From Escherichia phage vB_EcoM_G37-3: 64,000 nucleotides of DNA. A program made the translations under genes and the position numbers. Location of the stretch: the sequence record MK327941.1; one strand, 5' to 3'. Of the stretch, positions 29,863-34,106 are shown one piece after another. The notes below the pieces were generated by a model. The model was not told where the DNA came from. It did no database searches and worked only from the letters and a program-made list of their open reading frames with translations. Within the stretch, counting starts at the first letter, position 1, and the number at the start of each line of letters is the position of its first letter.

Positions 29863-30519
29863 TTAAATGTTCGCGAGAATCGCGCTTTCAAATTCTTCTA
29901 ATGTACCATTATTTATGATAATGGTTTCACCGTCAATAGGCAAAATTCCTTTTTCGGTGGAGTGAGTCGATACAATACCAGTATCACGATGAATATGCAA
30001 CACCTTAGCACCCATAGCACGCATGAGAGCAATTTCAATAGGCTGACGCACATCAACCACTACAAAATACCCTTCTTCATTTTTGCGCTTCATAAACTCA
30101 TTCACGAAGAGATTACACCAATAAAGCGGATTGATCAAGTTAACCATTATATCAGTACCGAGAGTGGTTAACATGAGACGAATAGACCAGACGTTATTAT
30201 GTTTTTCGCCGATCTCATTAACGACCTTGTAAATCTCAGCCAGACGATCACAAGTAAAGGAACTACCGCCATACTTCGAATCTAGCATAAGCAGACACTG
30301 AATAAACCACTTATGCGCGGTATAGGTATCAATACCTAGATCGGCTTCTCTGTCACGCCCCAACCCGTCAAAGTCAAGATAAGTCAGACCTAAGTCTGGT
30401 TGACATTCGCACAATATTTCTTTGATCGGTGCTGCCAGTTGATAACTATGTCCATCAATGATTAACGCGGCAGTGTCTTTTCCTACTCGCTTTTTACCAC
30501 AAAGTGCAATCAATTTCAT
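29863..30519 (-). CDS. 1: Deoxynucleoside monophosphate kinase (gene 1)
   Basis: MKLIALCGKKRVGKDT P-loop and overall collinearity with T4 gp1. Confidence 0.85.
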   Translation of the reverse strand: MKLIALCGKKRVGKDTAALIIDGHSYQLAAPIKEILCECQPDLGLTYLDFDGLGRDREADLGIDTYTAHKWFIQCLLMLDSKYGGSSFTCDRLAEIYKVVNEIGEKHNNVWSIRLMLTTLGTDIMVNLINPLYWCNLFVNEFMKRKNEEGYFVVVDVRQPIEIALMRAMGAKVLHIHRDTGIVSTHSTEKGILPIDGETIIINNGTLEEFESAILANI

Positions 30520-30534
30520 TATATAAGCCTCTTA

Positions 30535-31125
30535 TTACTTTCTAAAAGCAGGGTGCATAGCTTTAATACCTTCCACCCTCTGACGATCCGCCGCCTGAAT
30601 TGCTGGGCGAGGAACGATCAGTTGACCATCACGTTCAATGCTCATTGTTTTAAAGGGAAGAATTGCAGTACACACCAGAGATTCATGCATATCATCGGTG
30701 TATGTTAACTCAAGTTCCCCCAATTGTGAACACCAACAACCATAAAAGTTAAAAGTGCACACAATGTTACGTCGTTCGTTGTCCATCATGTGAACTTGAA
30801 CGGCTTCCGGCATTGAATCCTTCCACGCAGTGGAGTTACCGTTATTGTAGTCTACTATAGAAAGCATCCATGTGTAAAGGTTTAGATAGCTTTCCAAATG
30901 CTCATCGACAATAAACCGGACTACCAACGGGTCAAACTCCACATGACTAGACGGATAATCAGCGACCGCCAAACCATATTGTCCAGCAACTTGCTTAGTC
31001 GGTGGAATGGTTATAGCCGGAAGTGTAACACCTTGAGCATTTAAAGTAAAGCCTTTTGTTAGTTGTCCATCTGGAATATTGATCTGCCAGTTGCTGGGGT
31101 TAGCATAGTTAAAGAGATTAGACAT
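30535..31125 (-). CDS. 3: Tail completion / sheath stabiliser protein gp3 (by synteny)
   Basis: ORF between gene 1 and gene 2 homologs; assignment mainly positional. Confidence 0.55.
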   Translation of the reverse strand: MSNLFNYANPSNWQINIPDGQLTKGFTLNAQGVTLPAITIPPTKQVAGQYGLAVADYPSSHVEFDPLVVRFIVDEHLESYLNLYTWMLSIVDYNNGNSTAWKDSMPEAVQVHMMDNERRNIVCTFNFYGCWCSQLGELELTYTDDMHESLVCTAILPFKTMSIERDGQLIVPRPAIQAADRQRVEGIKAMHPAFRK

Positions 31126-31315
31126 TACTGATTCCTCAAATGAAAATATTTATTAACAATTGTCGCTTTGCGACGTGCCGGAGGCATTGACTACTTTTTA
31201 ACCGAAACAAATTTTCTATTATTCTAAAGATCTTTCTTCGTTTTGGTTATGTTTTAACCAATAACTATATTTTTATACAGTAATAAATAAAACGGGTACT
31301 ATACGAGGACTTCTT

Positions 31316-31570
31316 ATGACAGAAGACATTTTGTTAAAACTCTATGATCGTCTGGATAACGAATTAGCAACATTGCGGGGTGAAGTTCTCTATTTGTCTA
31401 AATGCAATACAGATCTGCTTAAGCAGATTGCAGAAAGGGATGATCAAATAAAATCCCTTTCAGGTGCATTACGTGATCGCGACAAGGCATTAGAGATTTT
31501 ACAGCGTGTTACCAATAAGGAAGAATTAAAAGACTTCTTACATGGTTATGCTCATGCTATCGATCTATAA
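31316..31570 (+). CDS. Hypothetical coiled-coil protein (84 aa), plus-strand gene inside minus-strand block
   Basis: ATG with RBS GAGGA; ends at bidirectional hairpin. Confidence 0.4.
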   Translation: MTEDILLKLYDRLDNELATLRGEVLYLSKCNTDLLKQIAERDDQIKSLSGALRDRDKALEILQRVTNKEELKDFLHGYAHAIDL

Positions 31571-31574
31571 TAAA

Positions 31575-31600
31575 AAAGCCCGTCATTGACGGGCTTAATC
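31575..31600. terminator. Bidirectional hairpin terminator
   Basis: AGCCCGTCA-TTGACGGGCT hairpin; T-run on minus strand side. Confidence 0.5.
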
Positions 31601-32743
31601 TTAACTATTGATCATATCAATGACGTTTTGTAGCTCTGATATGGATAGCGTTTCTGTATATCCATCGGGCATATCTTCTTTACTAACATAGAAACCTTTA
31701 TACTTTTTCTTTATTGCACATTCCATAGAAAGAGCATCATCACCGTTATCGTATTTTTTATAAAATGTCAACTCATGACGAAATATAGATTTTGAAGATT
31801 GGTTTTGTATTCTTTTTATTAATCTGTTGTTGGTTATACCAAATTTTATAGCAACCGCAACATCTTCTTTGTATAAAGTTTGTACATAAATGTATGCAGG
31901 TTTATTCCTCTTAAATCCATGATTGCTACACATAGGGCAACCGCTATTTTTTGATACGTAGTCTCCTAAGTTTGGCGTAAATTCATGTCCGCTACTACAA
32001 CGCATTACCAATTTTGTTTTTAGCATTCCTCTATACTCACCGCCAACAAAATCAACAAATGTATCACCTTTATCAATCGCCTTATCTGTTATTTCCTTTA
32101 CTACTTGCTCAGTTGACTTCTTGTTTTTACCTGAACATAGTTTACATCTAGATCCATTAACTAAAAACGAGTGACCGGATGCAGTATATTCATGTCCATT
32201 AGGGCATTTAACTAAGATATTTCTTTCATAAAAATCTTTATAATCAGACACATAGTCAATGACTTCGTGGTCTTTTTGGTTATTCCTCATCTCTGTTAGC
32301 AACTCTTCGCTATTCCAGCGTTTACCCTTAACGCAGAGACAACCATGACCTTGATAAAGATATATAAATTTCTTAGTAAAGTTTTTGTTGCAATCAGGAC
32401 AATGCATTAGTAATTCTGTCATTTGACCTGTATATCCTTTAGGAATATCGATCAATGTGTATTTTCCGCATATTGTCTTTAATGCATCATCTATTCTTTC
32501 TTTGGTCCAGCGTAAGCGACCAGTGCATTCATGACATTTTACACCCAGTCTAAGAGTATCTAAACTAAATATAGTTGACGTATGTCCTTTATCACATTTT
32601 AACTTAAATCTAGTATCCTTTGCGTTGGTGTATTCTCCGACTAGACCATACCATTCATAACCACATGGGATATGTTCTTTTACCTTCTCTAGATATACAC
32701 CGAACGGTCTAGGAACTGAATTAGGTTTTCTTTCTTTAGTCAT
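31601..32743 (-). CDS. Multi zinc-ribbon protein with C-terminal GIY-YIG-like (T5orf172-type) domain; putative homing-endonuclease-like selfish gene
   Basis: At least six C-x2-C ... GH pairs; C-terminal AYIYVQ...IKFGITNN...GYTETLSIS resembles the T5orf172 motif pattern; inserted between gene 3 and gene 2. Confidence 0.55.
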   Translation of the reverse strand: MTKERKPNSVPRPFGVYLEKVKEHIPCGYEWYGLVGEYTNAKDTRFKLKCDKGHTSTIFSLDTLRLGVKCHECTGRLRWTKERIDDALKTICGKYTLIDIPKGYTGQMTELLMHCPDCNKNFTKKFIYLYQGHGCLCVKGKRWNSEELLTEMRNNQKDHEVIDYVSDYKDFYERNILVKCPNGHEYTASGHSFLVNGSRCKLCSGKNKKSTEQVVKEITDKAIDKGDTFVDFVGGEYRGMLKTKLVMRCSSGHEFTPNLGDYVSKNSGCPMCSNHGFKRNKPAYIYVQTLYKEDVAVAIKFGITNNRLIKRIQNQSSKSIFRHELTFYKKYDNGDDALSMECAIKKKYKGFYVSKEDMPDGYTETLSISELQNVIDMINS

Positions 32744-32761
32744 ATTTTTATATCCTGTAAA

Positions 32762-32785
32762 TTAAAGCGCCGTCACCAGCGGCGC
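32762..32785. other. Hairpin between gene 2 and inserted gene
   Basis: Inverted repeat AGCGCCG-TCACCAG-CGGCGCT. Confidence 0.4.
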
Positions 32786-32799
32786 TATTTTTATAATCA

Positions 32800-33621
32800 T
32801 TAAAACAATTTCCACACCTTACGAGCATCATATTTCTTGTCTTTGCTCATAAACTGGTAGGTCGGAAGATACACAACCGTGCTCCAATCTTTTGGTGCGA
32901 TCTCAATCAGTTTTGTTTGGATGTGTCCAGGCAAATATGCTTTGATCATGTGGTCTGCGCCTCTCATACCTTTAACATCACTCCATTTAATTTTTAAACG
33001 AGTTTTATTACTAAGAGTAGGTGTACTCGCGTATTGTCGCAACAACGCTTCTAAGAACTGCTGGCGAGCTTTAGGTGGCGCATAGTGCAAGTTCAAACCT
33101 AGCATAATCTCGTTTCCCGCTTTAGATGTACCAAATCCTAGACAGATAATCAAGGGGTATCGGTCAAAGAATGGCAAAGAATCCCGATATTTTGGGTTAT
33201 ACGCATAAGTATAGATCCGTCCCACTTGTGGTTTTACTACCTGATGACCTTTTACACCATCCTTGATGGTCTTCATAAACCACTCCTGTGATTTTTCTTT
33301 AGGACGACTCTTTGATACAGCACGCATAGACGCACGAAAATCATTAATCATCATCATTGCGCGTTGCTGCTTATTGAGACCCTTTGCGCCTTTCCCTTTT
33401 AGTTTTTCAACTTCTATTGCTGTTTTAATTTCGCTGGCATAACGAGACATACTTTTAGTGAAAGTCGCATAGGCTATTCCCTTAGAATCTGCAAATGCTT
33501 TAGCTGTCATTCCTTTGGCTTTTGCTTTCGCAAATTCTACACCCAATTCGACCCACTGTTTAGACTTTCGTTTTTTGGGAGACGGCTTTTCGTCTTCTGT
33601 GATTATTTCAAATACGCTCAT
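32800..33621 (-). CDS. 2: DNA end protector protein gp2
   Basis: 273-aa basic protein, syntenic with T4 gp2 (between genes 3 and 4). Confidence 0.7.
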   Translation of the reverse strand: MSVFEIITEDEKPSPKKRKSKQWVELGVEFAKAKAKGMTAKAFADSKGIAYATFTKSMSRYASEIKTAIEVEKLKGKGAKGLNKQQRAMMMINDFRASMRAVSKSRPKEKSQEWFMKTIKDGVKGHQVVKPQVGRIYTYAYNPKYRDSLPFFDRYPLIICLGFGTSKAGNEIMLGLNLHYAPPKARQQFLEALLRQYASTPTLSNKTRLKIKWSDVKGMRGADHMIKAYLPGHIQTKLIEIAPKDWSTVVYLPTYQFMSKDKKYDARKVWKLF

Positions 33622-33632
33622 AATATTATCCT

Positions 33633-34106
33633 CTATTTGTTAAGCCCTTTAAAGCCAAACACTTTCTTTAATGCATGTTCGGTGATGATCTTAAACTCCA
33701 TGTTATGCTTTTGGCATAATTTCACGGCAGCTAACCATTTTTCAGTATTTTTTGTGTATGTCCATACTTCATGCATATATCGTTGCTTTGTCTTCGCGGT
33801 CATTCTTTTTGGCTTTTCCGGTGGCCTTGTCTCTTTAGCTGGTTTAACTTCCCATAAATGCTCCTTGCCATCATCAAACTTAACGTAAAAATCCATAAAG
33901 TATCTGTGTCTTTTCCCGTCTGTTGATGACTCATAAGGAATTACTACGGTCTCAGATCCCCATTTTGAAACTCTAGGATTGCGGTCTAGCCACTGCATGA
34001 TCCATCTTTCCCAGCTTGAACGGTATGTGATCTTACGTATATCCCCTTTATACTTTTCCTTATTCTCAGGAACATACTTGCCCTTATAAGTGTTAGATCC
34101 TCCCAT
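33633..34106 (-). CDS. 4: Head completion protein gp4
   Basis: Aligns with T4 gp4 (GKYVP, YRSSWERW, VVIPY, DGKRHRYFMDFY, FKIITEH). Confidence 0.8.
   Translation of the reverse strand: MGGSNTYKGKYVPENKEKYKGDIRKITYRSSWERWIMQWLDRNPRVSKWGSETVVIPYESSTDGKRHRYFMDFYVKFDDGKEHLWEVKPAKETRPPEKPKRMTAKTKQRYMHEVWTYTKNTEKWLAAVKLCQKHNMEFKIITEHALKKVFGFKGLNK

What the first reader, a model, noticed from the sequence alone, without database searches (positions are those of the whole stretch)
31126..32799. Insertion between tail genes 3 and 2: multi-zinc-ribbon protein with a GIY-YIG-like domain plus a divergent small gene
Between gene 3 (30535-31125) and gene 2 (32800-33621) lies a 380-aa minus-strand ORF with at least six Cys-x2-Cys ... 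Gly-His modules and a C-terminal T5orf172-like region (AYIYVQ...KFGITNN...GYTETLSI). Next to it is a plus-strand 84-aa coiled-coil ORF (31316-31570) and a shared bidirectional hairpin (31575-31600). From memory, genes 1-3-2-4 are contiguous in T4. This looks like a selfish homing-type element or a DNA-binding regulator.
Basis: partly seen in the sequence, partly recalled or inferred. Interest (0 to 1): 0.6.

Follow-up and report, generated by a model that had tools for sequence, protein, structure and literature searches.

The report
Free-standing homing endonuclease beside gene 2
A selfish "homing endonuclease" gene (four zinc-finger DNA readers fused to a GIY-YIG-type nuclease) sits just after the DNA-end-protector gene of an RB49/JSE-like T4-type coliphage, dragging 480 bp of foreign gene-2 sequence with it; it is a clear but ordinary example of a recently described class.

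The parts
31601..32743 (-). Free-standing homing endonuclease gene (380 aa plus stop). Same gene as JSE EpJSE_00134, annotated 'endonuclease'.
   Evidence: ORF. PHROG 681 'endonuclease' 4e-81. Pfam CapR 3.5e-12 and DUF4379 3.3e-8. Present in 4 of 63 related records. RefSeq annotation.
31919..32716 (-). DNA-binding array: four tandem CapR-type treble-clef zinc modules (aa 10-76, 77-141, 142-206, 207-275). Window coordinates are 32516-32716, 32321-32515, 32126-32320 and 31919-32125.
   Evidence: Four CapR stretches in Pfam. Ligand pattern. In-register alignment of the four modules. Repeated helix plus beta-hairpin units in the AF2 model, pLDDT about 80-86. CapR cysteines are required for DNA binding (PMC8096241).
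31604..31918 (-). C-terminal nuclease domain (aa 276-380), T5orf172 branch of the GIY-YIG superfamily. Family-invariant residues: Y286, K300-F-G-I-T-N305, R311, G334, E341, K345, K355, G361-Y-T-E-T365.
32744..32799 (-). Leader carried by the insert: Shine-Dalgarno AGGA (32753-32756, 9 nt before the ATG) and a GC-rich hairpin (32766-32786) just after the gene 2 stop. The hairpin is a terminator-like element that would limit read-through from gene 2.
   Evidence: Sequence. Terminator scan. Fold of the 71-nt stretch is not significant on its own, z -1.5. Absent from RB49. An unrelated hairpin occupies the same relative position in the FL37-type cassette.
31576..31596 (.). Backbone hairpin and the left boundary of the insertion. 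It terminates the minus-strand transcript: gene 2 in RB49, the endonuclease gene here. It also lies just after the 84-aa ORF.
   Evidence: Identical in RB49, FL37, AV108 and JK32.
32800..33275 (-). Foreign (co-converted) tract: codons 116-273 of gene 2. It is strictly linked to the endonuclease gene.
   Evidence: 58-86% identity to RB49 per 50-bp bin, against 98-100% on both sides. 144 nt differences in 498 nt, against 4 in 321 nt in the 5' part of the gene; 67 synonymous and 34 non-synonymous codon changes. Only the 4 endonuclease-positive records carry it at 99% or more; the next best is JK32 at 78.8%.
32800..33621 (-). Gene 2 (DNA end protector), chimeric. The presumed target gene of the endonuclease lies in endonuclease-free relatives.
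   Evidence: PHROG 429 6e-70. 88% aa identity to RB49 gp2, with all but 1 of the 35 amino-acid changes after residue 115.
31316..31570 (+). 84-aa coiled-coil ORF. This is flanking backbone, NOT part of the mobile element.
   Evidence: Present at 95% aa identity or more in 58 records, all RB49-like coliphages (organism names Escherichia, Enterobacteria, Shigella, Krischvirus). PHROG 17832, unknown function. 100% nt identity to RB49.

Best explanation
The 380-aa ORF is a free-standing (intron-less) homing endonuclease gene. An array of four CapR-type zinc-finger modules reads an extended DNA site. A C-terminal T5orf172-type GIY-YIG nuclease, attached to the array, cuts nearby.

Proposed mechanism: in a cell co-infected with a relative that lacks the gene, the enzyme cuts that genome in or near the 3' part of gene 2. 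T4-type recombinational repair then uses the endonuclease-carrying genome as template. Repair copies in the endonuclease gene together with adjacent gene 2 sequence. The carrier is immune because its own gene 2 3' part differs at about 29% of positions. The gene is probably expressed at a low level by read-through of the gene 2 late transcript past a small hairpin, from its own Shine-Dalgarno sequence.

Shown: domain architecture, fold, conserved catalytic-type residues, the presence/absence polymorphism at a precise site, and the linked foreign tract. Inferred: cleavage activity, target location, current mobility and the expression route.
For: Architecture: CapR x4 plus DUF4379. The four modules align in register.

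Homology: BLASTP E 7e-18 over 351 aa to ICP1 Gp130/TcgB. Gp130 passes the Pfam T5orf172 and CapR thresholds and is treated as a homing endonuclease in PMC8096241 and PMC10448857.

Catalytic residues: Y286, G302, R311 and E341 are invariant in 31 homologues. They align to Y127, G140, R148 and E180 of Odn. Odn's nuclease activity is abolished by E180A (PMC8263062).

Mobility: the ORF is present in 4 of 63 records. The empty site in RB49 is precise. A 27%-identical paralogue occupies the same site in 11 records, with its own tract of about 70 bp. The 476-bp foreign tract is strictly linked to the gene. GC content is 0.33-0.35 in the ORF, against about 0.37-0.45 in the flanking genes 1, 3, 2 and 4.
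Against: No cleavage or homing experiment exists for this protein.

The Pfam T5orf172 score is just below the gathering cut-off: 17.1 bits full length and 19.8 bits for the domain alone, against 20.

Profile comparison with T4 I-TevI and SegG finds nothing. The Odn alignment is statistically weak (E 0.022).

Close alleles differ by 9 non-synonymous and 3 synonymous codons, which is about neutral. The gene may therefore be drifting rather than maintained.

No exact late promoter (TATAAATA) lies upstream of the ORF.

The foreign tract could come from an ordinary recombination event that merely ended at this junction. JK32 has a 1.3-kb divergent gene 2 plus gene 4 tract starting at the same boundary without any endonuclease gene.
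Confidence: 0.8

Rival explanations
1. It is a domesticated or regulatory DNA-binding protein. Like PLE CapR, it would use the zinc-finger array to repress or tune transcription, for example of late genes 2/4 or 3, and the C-terminal domain would no longer cut DNA.
For: CapR itself is a repressor derived from this endonuclease lineage (PMC8096241). The ORF sits among late structural genes. Its Pfam T5orf172 score is below threshold.
Against: CapR lacks the nuclease domain, whereas here that domain is complete. The residues aligning to the catalytic Arg and Glu are invariant in 31 homologues. The gene is dispensable: it is absent from most relatives, which otherwise share the same flanking genes and upstream regions. 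Presence/absence at one site plus a linked foreign tract is not expected of a regulator.
Confidence: 0.05
2. It is a decaying endonuclease gene. The ORF arrived by homing or recombination but the enzyme is now inactive or has no remaining targets. It would be a passenger awaiting loss.
For: Substitutions among close alleles are near neutral (9 non-synonymous: 3 synonymous). The gene is found in only 3 isolates plus one metagenome contig. Homing endonuclease genes commonly decay after fixation (established knowledge of the homing cycle).
Against: The ORF is intact in all 5 copies examined: the window, JSE, AV108 and contig L012 by direct codon comparison, and PTE-Eco09 by 99.4% identity over the whole 3.4-kb query. 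None of the 9 substitutions touches a zinc ligand or an invariant nuclease residue. Most relatives still have empty sites, so targets remain available.
Confidence: 0.1
3. Its main role is as an exclusion or defence nuclease. Like ICP1 Odn, it would be kept because it cuts competitors (co-infecting relatives or satellites), and its own spread would be secondary.
For: Odn shows that this nuclease family can be repurposed (PMC8263062). T4 homing endonucleases cause partial exclusion of T2 markers (PMC2993671).
Against: No separate target is evident. The site polymorphism and the linked tract are what homing itself produces. Marker exclusion is a by-product of the same mechanism rather than a distinct one.
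Confidence: 0.05

Closest known systems
ICP1-type CapR/T5orf172 homing endonuclease genes (e.g. ICP1 Gp130/TcgB; Netter 2021 PMC8096241; Barth, Dunham and Seed 2023 PMC10448857)
   Same: Same domain order: an N-terminal repeated CapR/DUF4379 zinc-finger array and a C-terminal T5orf172 nuclease. End-to-end homology (E 7e-18). Free-standing, next to an essential virion gene, and sitting at a boundary of allele exchange.
   Different: The host lineage is a T4-type coliphage. Barth et al. note that T4 itself has no T5orf172 genes, and JSE/Krischvirus does not appear in their supplements. There are four zinc modules. Three of the four zinc sites use C-x3-H...C-x2-C rather than the CxxC...CxC of CapR. 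The T5orf172 score is just under the Pfam threshold.
T4 Seg proteins (SegA-G) and I-TevI: GIY-YIG homing endonucleases of T-even phages
   Same: GIY-YIG-fold nuclease tethered to a separate DNA-binding region (fold). By analogy, intron-less homing with co-conversion of flanking markers of an essential gene; this mechanism is established for SegF/SegG but not tested here.
   Different: The domain order is reversed: Seg proteins and I-TevI have the nuclease at the N terminus. No detectable sequence similarity to I-TevI or SegG by profile comparison. The DNA-binding part here is a zinc-finger array rather than a helix-turn-helix with a minor-groove helix.
ICP1 Odn (Gp88), a T5orf172 nuclease with proven activity (PMC8263062)
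   Same: The T5orf172-type domain aligns over its whole length, and Y, G, R and E coincide; E341 corresponds to catalytic E180.
   Different: Odn's DNA-binding part is a RepA_N domain, and it acts as an anti-satellite weapon rather than a homing element. The similarity is weak (E 0.022).
PLE CapR (capsid repressor of the Vibrio cholerae satellite)
   Same: Shares the CapR zinc-finger DNA-binding module (Pfam PF21817, 46.8 bits).
   Different: CapR has one module and no nuclease domain, and it is a transcriptional repressor.

Membership tests
CapR homology domain proteins (Pfam PF21817) | Score above the Pfam gathering cut-off (24.2 bits) | tested here: met
   46.8 bits, E 3.5e-12, four stretches.
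CapR homology domain proteins (Pfam PF21817) | Four zinc ligands per module (CxxC...CxC in CapR), needed for DNA binding | tested here: met
   All four modules have four ligands. Module 2 is CxxC...CxC; modules 1, 3 and 4 are C-x3-H...C-x2-C. Ligands are invariant or more than 90% conserved in the family. Zinc and DNA binding were not assayed.
T5orf172 domain (Pfam PF10544) | Score above the Pfam gathering cut-off (20 bits) | tested here: not met
   17.1 bits full length; 19.8 bits for the domain alone. 5 of 10 family members hit T5orf172 and 7 of 10 hit MUG113 below or near threshold.
T5orf172 domain (Pfam PF10544) | Homology to bona fide T5orf172 proteins | tested here: met
   BLASTP E 7e-18 to ICP1 Gp130, which passes the T5orf172 cut-off at 21.2 bits. 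tblastn of the domain alone gives E 7e-6 against ICP1 tcgB in a 2.3-Gb database.
GIY-YIG nuclease superfamily | Three-stranded sheet flanked by helices (beta-beta-alpha-beta-alpha core) | tested here: met
GIY-YIG nuclease superfamily | Motif residues: Tyr in strand 1, Gly in strand 2, catalytic Arg in helix 1, catalytic Glu | tested here: met
   Y286, G302, R311 and E341 are invariant in 31 sequences, lie on the matching secondary-structure elements, and align with Odn Y127/G140/R148/E180. The second Tyr of 'YIG' is Phe301, as in the K-I/F-G form of T5orf172. The alignment itself is statistically weak.
GIY-YIG nuclease superfamily | Metal-dependent DNA cleavage | not testable with these tools
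   Needs a nuclease assay with an E341A control.
Homing endonuclease genes (functional class) | Presence/absence polymorphism at one precise site among otherwise collinear genomes | tested here: met
   4 records have it, 11 have a paralogue, and the listed remainder are empty. The RB49 junction is precise.
Homing endonuclease genes (functional class) | Co-conversion of flanking sequence, or target-site divergence in the carrier | tested here: met
   A 476-bp tract is about 71% identical to RB49 within a 98-100% background. It is carried at 99% or more only by the endonuclease-positive genomes.
Homing endonuclease genes (functional class) | Cleavage of the endonuclease-free allele and super-Mendelian inheritance in crosses | not testable with these tools
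   Requires experiments.
T4 Seg family (seg-like GIY-YIG) | N-terminal GIY-YIG domain recognisable by sequence, with a C-terminal DNA-binding region | tested here: not met
   The nuclease is C-terminal. hhalign against T4 SegG and I-TevI gives probability below 1%.

The most novel reading that the evidence does not exclude
The 3' end of gene 2 in Krischvirus may be a contested homing site. Two anciently diverged CapR/T5orf172 endonucleases (JSE-type and FL37/Phi1-type, 27% identical) would compete for it. Each carries its own immunity tract in gene 2 (476 bp and about 70 bp). This traffic would actively diversify the C-terminal domain of an essential virion protein. In addition, the family may keep a near-constant nuclease half while swapping zinc-finger modules. 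That would amount to a natural, modular, re-targetable DNA-recognition array.
Probability: 0.3. Interest if true: 0.5.

Novelty: new member of a known kind. Interest (0 to 1): 0.3.

Why it matters
The case extends the CapR/T5orf172 homing endonuclease class, characterised in Vibrio phage ICP1, T5-like phages and Aeromonas phages, to RB49-type relatives of T4. It is a clean natural example. There is a precise empty site, two rival paralogues at that site, and sharply bounded foreign tracts inside an essential gene. JSE and RB49 are culturable E. coli phages that are about 98% identical elsewhere. The pair would therefore be a convenient system for measuring homing, co-conversion length and the DNA code of CapR zinc-finger arrays. 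For annotation, the ORF should be called a putative homing endonuclease, and gene 2 of JSE-type phages should be recognised as chimeric.

Tried and rejected
1. A Foldseek search of the full-length model against the PDB gave only noise (best E 0.07). The model is a string of loosely connected domains (pTM 0.35). This was solved by modelling the C-terminal domain alone.

2. Sequence and profile searches against PDB sequences found nothing meaningful.

3. hhalign of the C-terminal profile against T4 I-TevI and SegG gave no similarity. The gene is therefore not a seg-type gene.

4. NCBIfam gave no hit.

5. The afdb50 fold library was unavailable.

6. A search for paralogues in the 64-kb window found none. 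The weak tblastn hits near 61.7 kb lie on the opposite strand within the span of a 521-aa ORF and are noise. The region has no second copy in the window.

7. No exact T4 late promoter (TATAAATA) lies between 31100 and 33700. The sigma-70-like scan is at chance level: 11 found against 10 expected.

8. I could not find the donor of the foreign gene 2 tract. The best non-carrier match is JK32 at 78.8%.

9. A look-up of the exact window protein in assemblies returned nothing. The 98% variant P0001 gave one short contig with the same arrangement.

10. The target site could not be pinpointed, because the tract is too uniformly divergent. Only two identical runs of 21 nt or more exist: 32935-32955 and 33276-33300.

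Full report
**What is there.** On the minus strand lie gene 1 (dNMP kinase, 29863-30519), gene 3 (30535-31125), a 380-aa ORF (31601-32743), gene 2 (DNA end protector, 32800-33621) and gene 4 (33633-34106). An 84-aa ORF lies on the plus strand at 31316-31570. The window is a Krischvirus, that is an RB49-like relative of T4. It is 99.6% identical to Escherichia phage JSE over 3.4 kb. In JSE's RefSeq record the 380-aa ORF is EpJSE_00134, annotated 'endonuclease'.

**The protein: DNA-binding half.** Pfam finds the CapR homology domain (E 3.5e-12, four stretches) and DUF4379, a treble-clef zinc finger (3.3e-8). By direct reading there are four zinc sites, not six or more:
- C50/H54/C70/C73
- C115/C118/C135/C137
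- C180/H184/C200/C203
- C249/H253/C269/C272

The sites are spaced 65, 65 and 69 residues apart. The four roughly 65-aa modules align in register. The full-length AlphaFold model (pLDDT 80.9, pTM 0.35) shows the same helix plus beta-hairpin unit four times. The units are loosely connected.

- T5orf172 scores 17.1 bits full length and 19.8 bits alone, against a cut-off of 20.
- MUG113 hits 7 of 10 family members.
- GIY-YIG hits 3 of 10.

All three families belong to one clan.

**Homology to characterised relatives.** The whole protein aligns with ICP1 Gp130/TcgB (E 7e-18 over 351 residues). Gp130 passes the Pfam thresholds for both CapR and T5orf172. It is one of the putative homing endonucleases discussed by Netter et al. 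2021 and Barth et al. 2023. Across 31 homologues, Y286, K300-F-G-I-T-N305, R311, E341 and G361-Y-T-E-T365 are invariant. A weak but full-length profile alignment to ICP1 Odn places Y286, G302, R311 and E341 on Odn Y127, G140, R148 and E180. E180A abolishes Odn's nuclease activity (PMC8263062). Profile comparison with T4 I-TevI and SegG finds nothing, and the nuclease is C-terminal. The protein is therefore not a seg-type enzyme.

**Mobility: the insertion site.** Of 63 related phage records, only JSE (two records), PTE-Eco09 and AV108 contain the ORF. A metagenome contig adds a fourth independent copy at 98% identity with the same junctions. In RB49 and most others the gene 2 stop codon lies a few bases from the hairpin at 31576-31596. 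The insert is therefore 31601-32799: the ORF plus a 56-bp leader. The leader contains a Shine-Dalgarno sequence (AGGA, 32753-32756) and a second GC-rich hairpin (32766-32786). The ORF has lower GC (0.33-0.35) than the flanking genes 1, 3, 2 and 4 (about 0.37-0.45).

**Mobility: the linked foreign tract.** The window is 98-100% identical to RB49 for kilobases on both sides. The exception is 32800-33275, the last 158 codons of gene 2. There, identity per 50-bp bin falls to 58-86%. That tract has 144 differences in 498 nt, against 4 in 321 nt in the 5' part of the same gene. Synonymous changes predominate: 67 codons against 34. The resulting gp2 is intact and 88% identical to RB49 gp2. This allele occurs at 99% or more only in the four endonuclease-carrying records. 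The next best match is 78.8%, in phage JK32. A foreign tract that starts exactly at a homing endonuclease gene and runs one way into an essential gene is the classical footprint of intron-less homing with co-conversion. It fits the rule described by Barth et al. that nuclease genes occupy boundaries of genetic exchange.

**The site is contested.** Eleven records carry a different 350-aa ORF at exactly the same junction. They include FL37, FL38, ELT3, ECD7, Cognac, Skers, G2248, pEJ01 and, in an 85%-identical form, Phi1. This ORF is a distant paralogue: 27% identity, E 4e-25, three CapR modules and the same C-terminal motifs. It is linked to its own, shorter divergent tract, with 21 substitutions in the last 70 nt of gene 2. 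AV108 additionally carries an HNH-AP2 endonuclease gene between gene 3 and the 84-aa ORF. JK32 has no endonuclease gene, but it has a 1.3-kb divergent gene 2 plus gene 4 tract starting at the same boundary.

**The 84-aa ORF.** It is not part of the mobile unit. It is present at 95% amino-acid identity or more in 58 records, all RB49-like coliphages and nowhere else at E < 1e-3. It is 100% identical in nucleotide sequence to RB49 here. Its function is unknown (PHROG 17832). Relative to T4 it is an extra gene. Relative to the genus it is backbone.

**Mechanism and confidence.** The most likely reading (0.8) is a free-standing homing endonuclease. The zinc-finger array binds an extended site in or near the 3' part of gene 2 of endonuclease-free relatives, and the GIY-YIG-type domain cuts. 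Recombinational repair then copies the gene and adjacent gene 2 sequence from the carrier. The carrier's divergent gene 2 tract gives it immunity.

The architecture, fold, conserved residues, site polymorphism and linked tract are shown. Cleavage, target position, present-day activity and the expression route are inferred. The proposed route is read-through of the gene 2 late transcript past the small hairpin; no exact late promoter was found.

Several cautions apply:
- The T5orf172 score is just below threshold.
- The Odn alignment is weak.
- The close alleles differ by 9 non-synonymous and 3 synonymous codons, roughly neutral, with five of the nine in residues 15-36. The gene may be drifting, although no change touches a zinc ligand or an invariant nuclease residue.

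The rival explanations are a decaying endonuclease gene (0.1), a domesticated regulator (0.05) and a primarily exclusionary nuclease (0.05).

**Novelty.** The class was described by Barth, Dunham and Seed 2023 (PMC10448857): T5orf172 nucleases with repeated CapR/DUF723/DUF4379 zinc fingers, placed next to essential genes at exchange boundaries. That paper states that T4 has no T5orf172 genes, and its supplements do not mention JSE, RB49 or Krischvirus. Petrov et al. 2010 counted one 'seg-like GIY-YIG' putative endonuclease gene each in JSE and Phi1. These are probably the genes discussed here, though the table does not say so. The domain family is widespread, occurring in 430 phage records including T5-like, ICP1-like and jumbo phages, RB16 and other Krischvirus loci. 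The finding is real and cleanly interpretable, but it is a new member of a known kind. Interest: 0.3.

Noticed in passing
L004:2702-3754 (FL37); also FL38, ELT3, ECD7, Cognac, Skers, G2248, pEJ01, Phi1: A 27%-identical paralogous CapR/T5orf172 ORF occupies exactly the same junction between gene 2 and the hairpin in 11 records. It has its own divergent tract of about 70 bp in gene 2. Its annotated ATG overlaps the gene 2 stop (ATGCTTAA), which suggests translational coupling. A GC hairpin lies just inside its 5' end.
   Followed up: partly
L003:2257-2790 (AV108): AV108 carries an extra 177-aa HNH_3 + AP2 homing endonuclease gene. It is inserted between the gene 3 start and the conserved region upstream of the 84-aa ORF, so this 2-kb stretch holds two unrelated endonuclease genes.
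   Followed up: partly
L005:3001-4300 (Shigella phage JK32): JK32 has no endonuclease gene. All of gene 2 and gene 4 (1.3 kb) is 54-86% identical to RB49 apart from one 96% bin. The tract starts at the same hairpin boundary, and flanks are 96-100% identical. Its gp2 ends in KLF like the JSE-type allele. It may be a relative of the donor lineage, or an endonuclease-loss derivative.
   Followed up: partly
window 31316-31570 (+): The 84-aa coiled-coil ORF is restricted to RB49-like coliphages. It is almost invariant: 99% aa identity or more in 52 of 58 records. It is transcribed against the surrounding late genes. Its function is unknown.
   Followed up: partly
Alignments A1/A2 (homologues P0002-P0024); L011:1676-2854 (GEC-3S): Many homologues share a nearly identical C-terminal stretch of about 70 aa (KFDHEIFYELTLQDGQKILELENKIKEAMKGKTSYISKEDMPDGYTETVAPSEL...). 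Their zinc-finger arrays are only about 30% identical and vary in module number (up to 6 CapR stretches in JEP8_086). In GEC-3S a family member sits just downstream of gene 32. In T4, SegG flanks gene 32 on the other side.
   Followed up: partly
window 33633-34106 (-): Gene 4 (head completion) matches the Pfam TnsA-like endonuclease N-terminal domain (PF08722, E 5.7e-21). This is a nuclease-like fold in a virion completion protein.
   Followed up: no
L001:3901-4647 vs window 32800-33621: The JSE RefSeq record annotates gene 2 as 747 nt, with an 87-nt gap to gene 4. The window, RB49 and AV108 have an 822-nt ORF and an 11-nt gap. This is probably a start-site or sequence difference in the JSE record near the 5' end of gene 2.
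   Followed up: no
window 31145-31152 (-): The minus-strand sequence AATAAATA, one mismatch from the T4 late promoter TATAAATA, lies about 20 nt upstream of the gene 3 start. The AV108 HNH insertion begins right at this spot.
   Followed up: no
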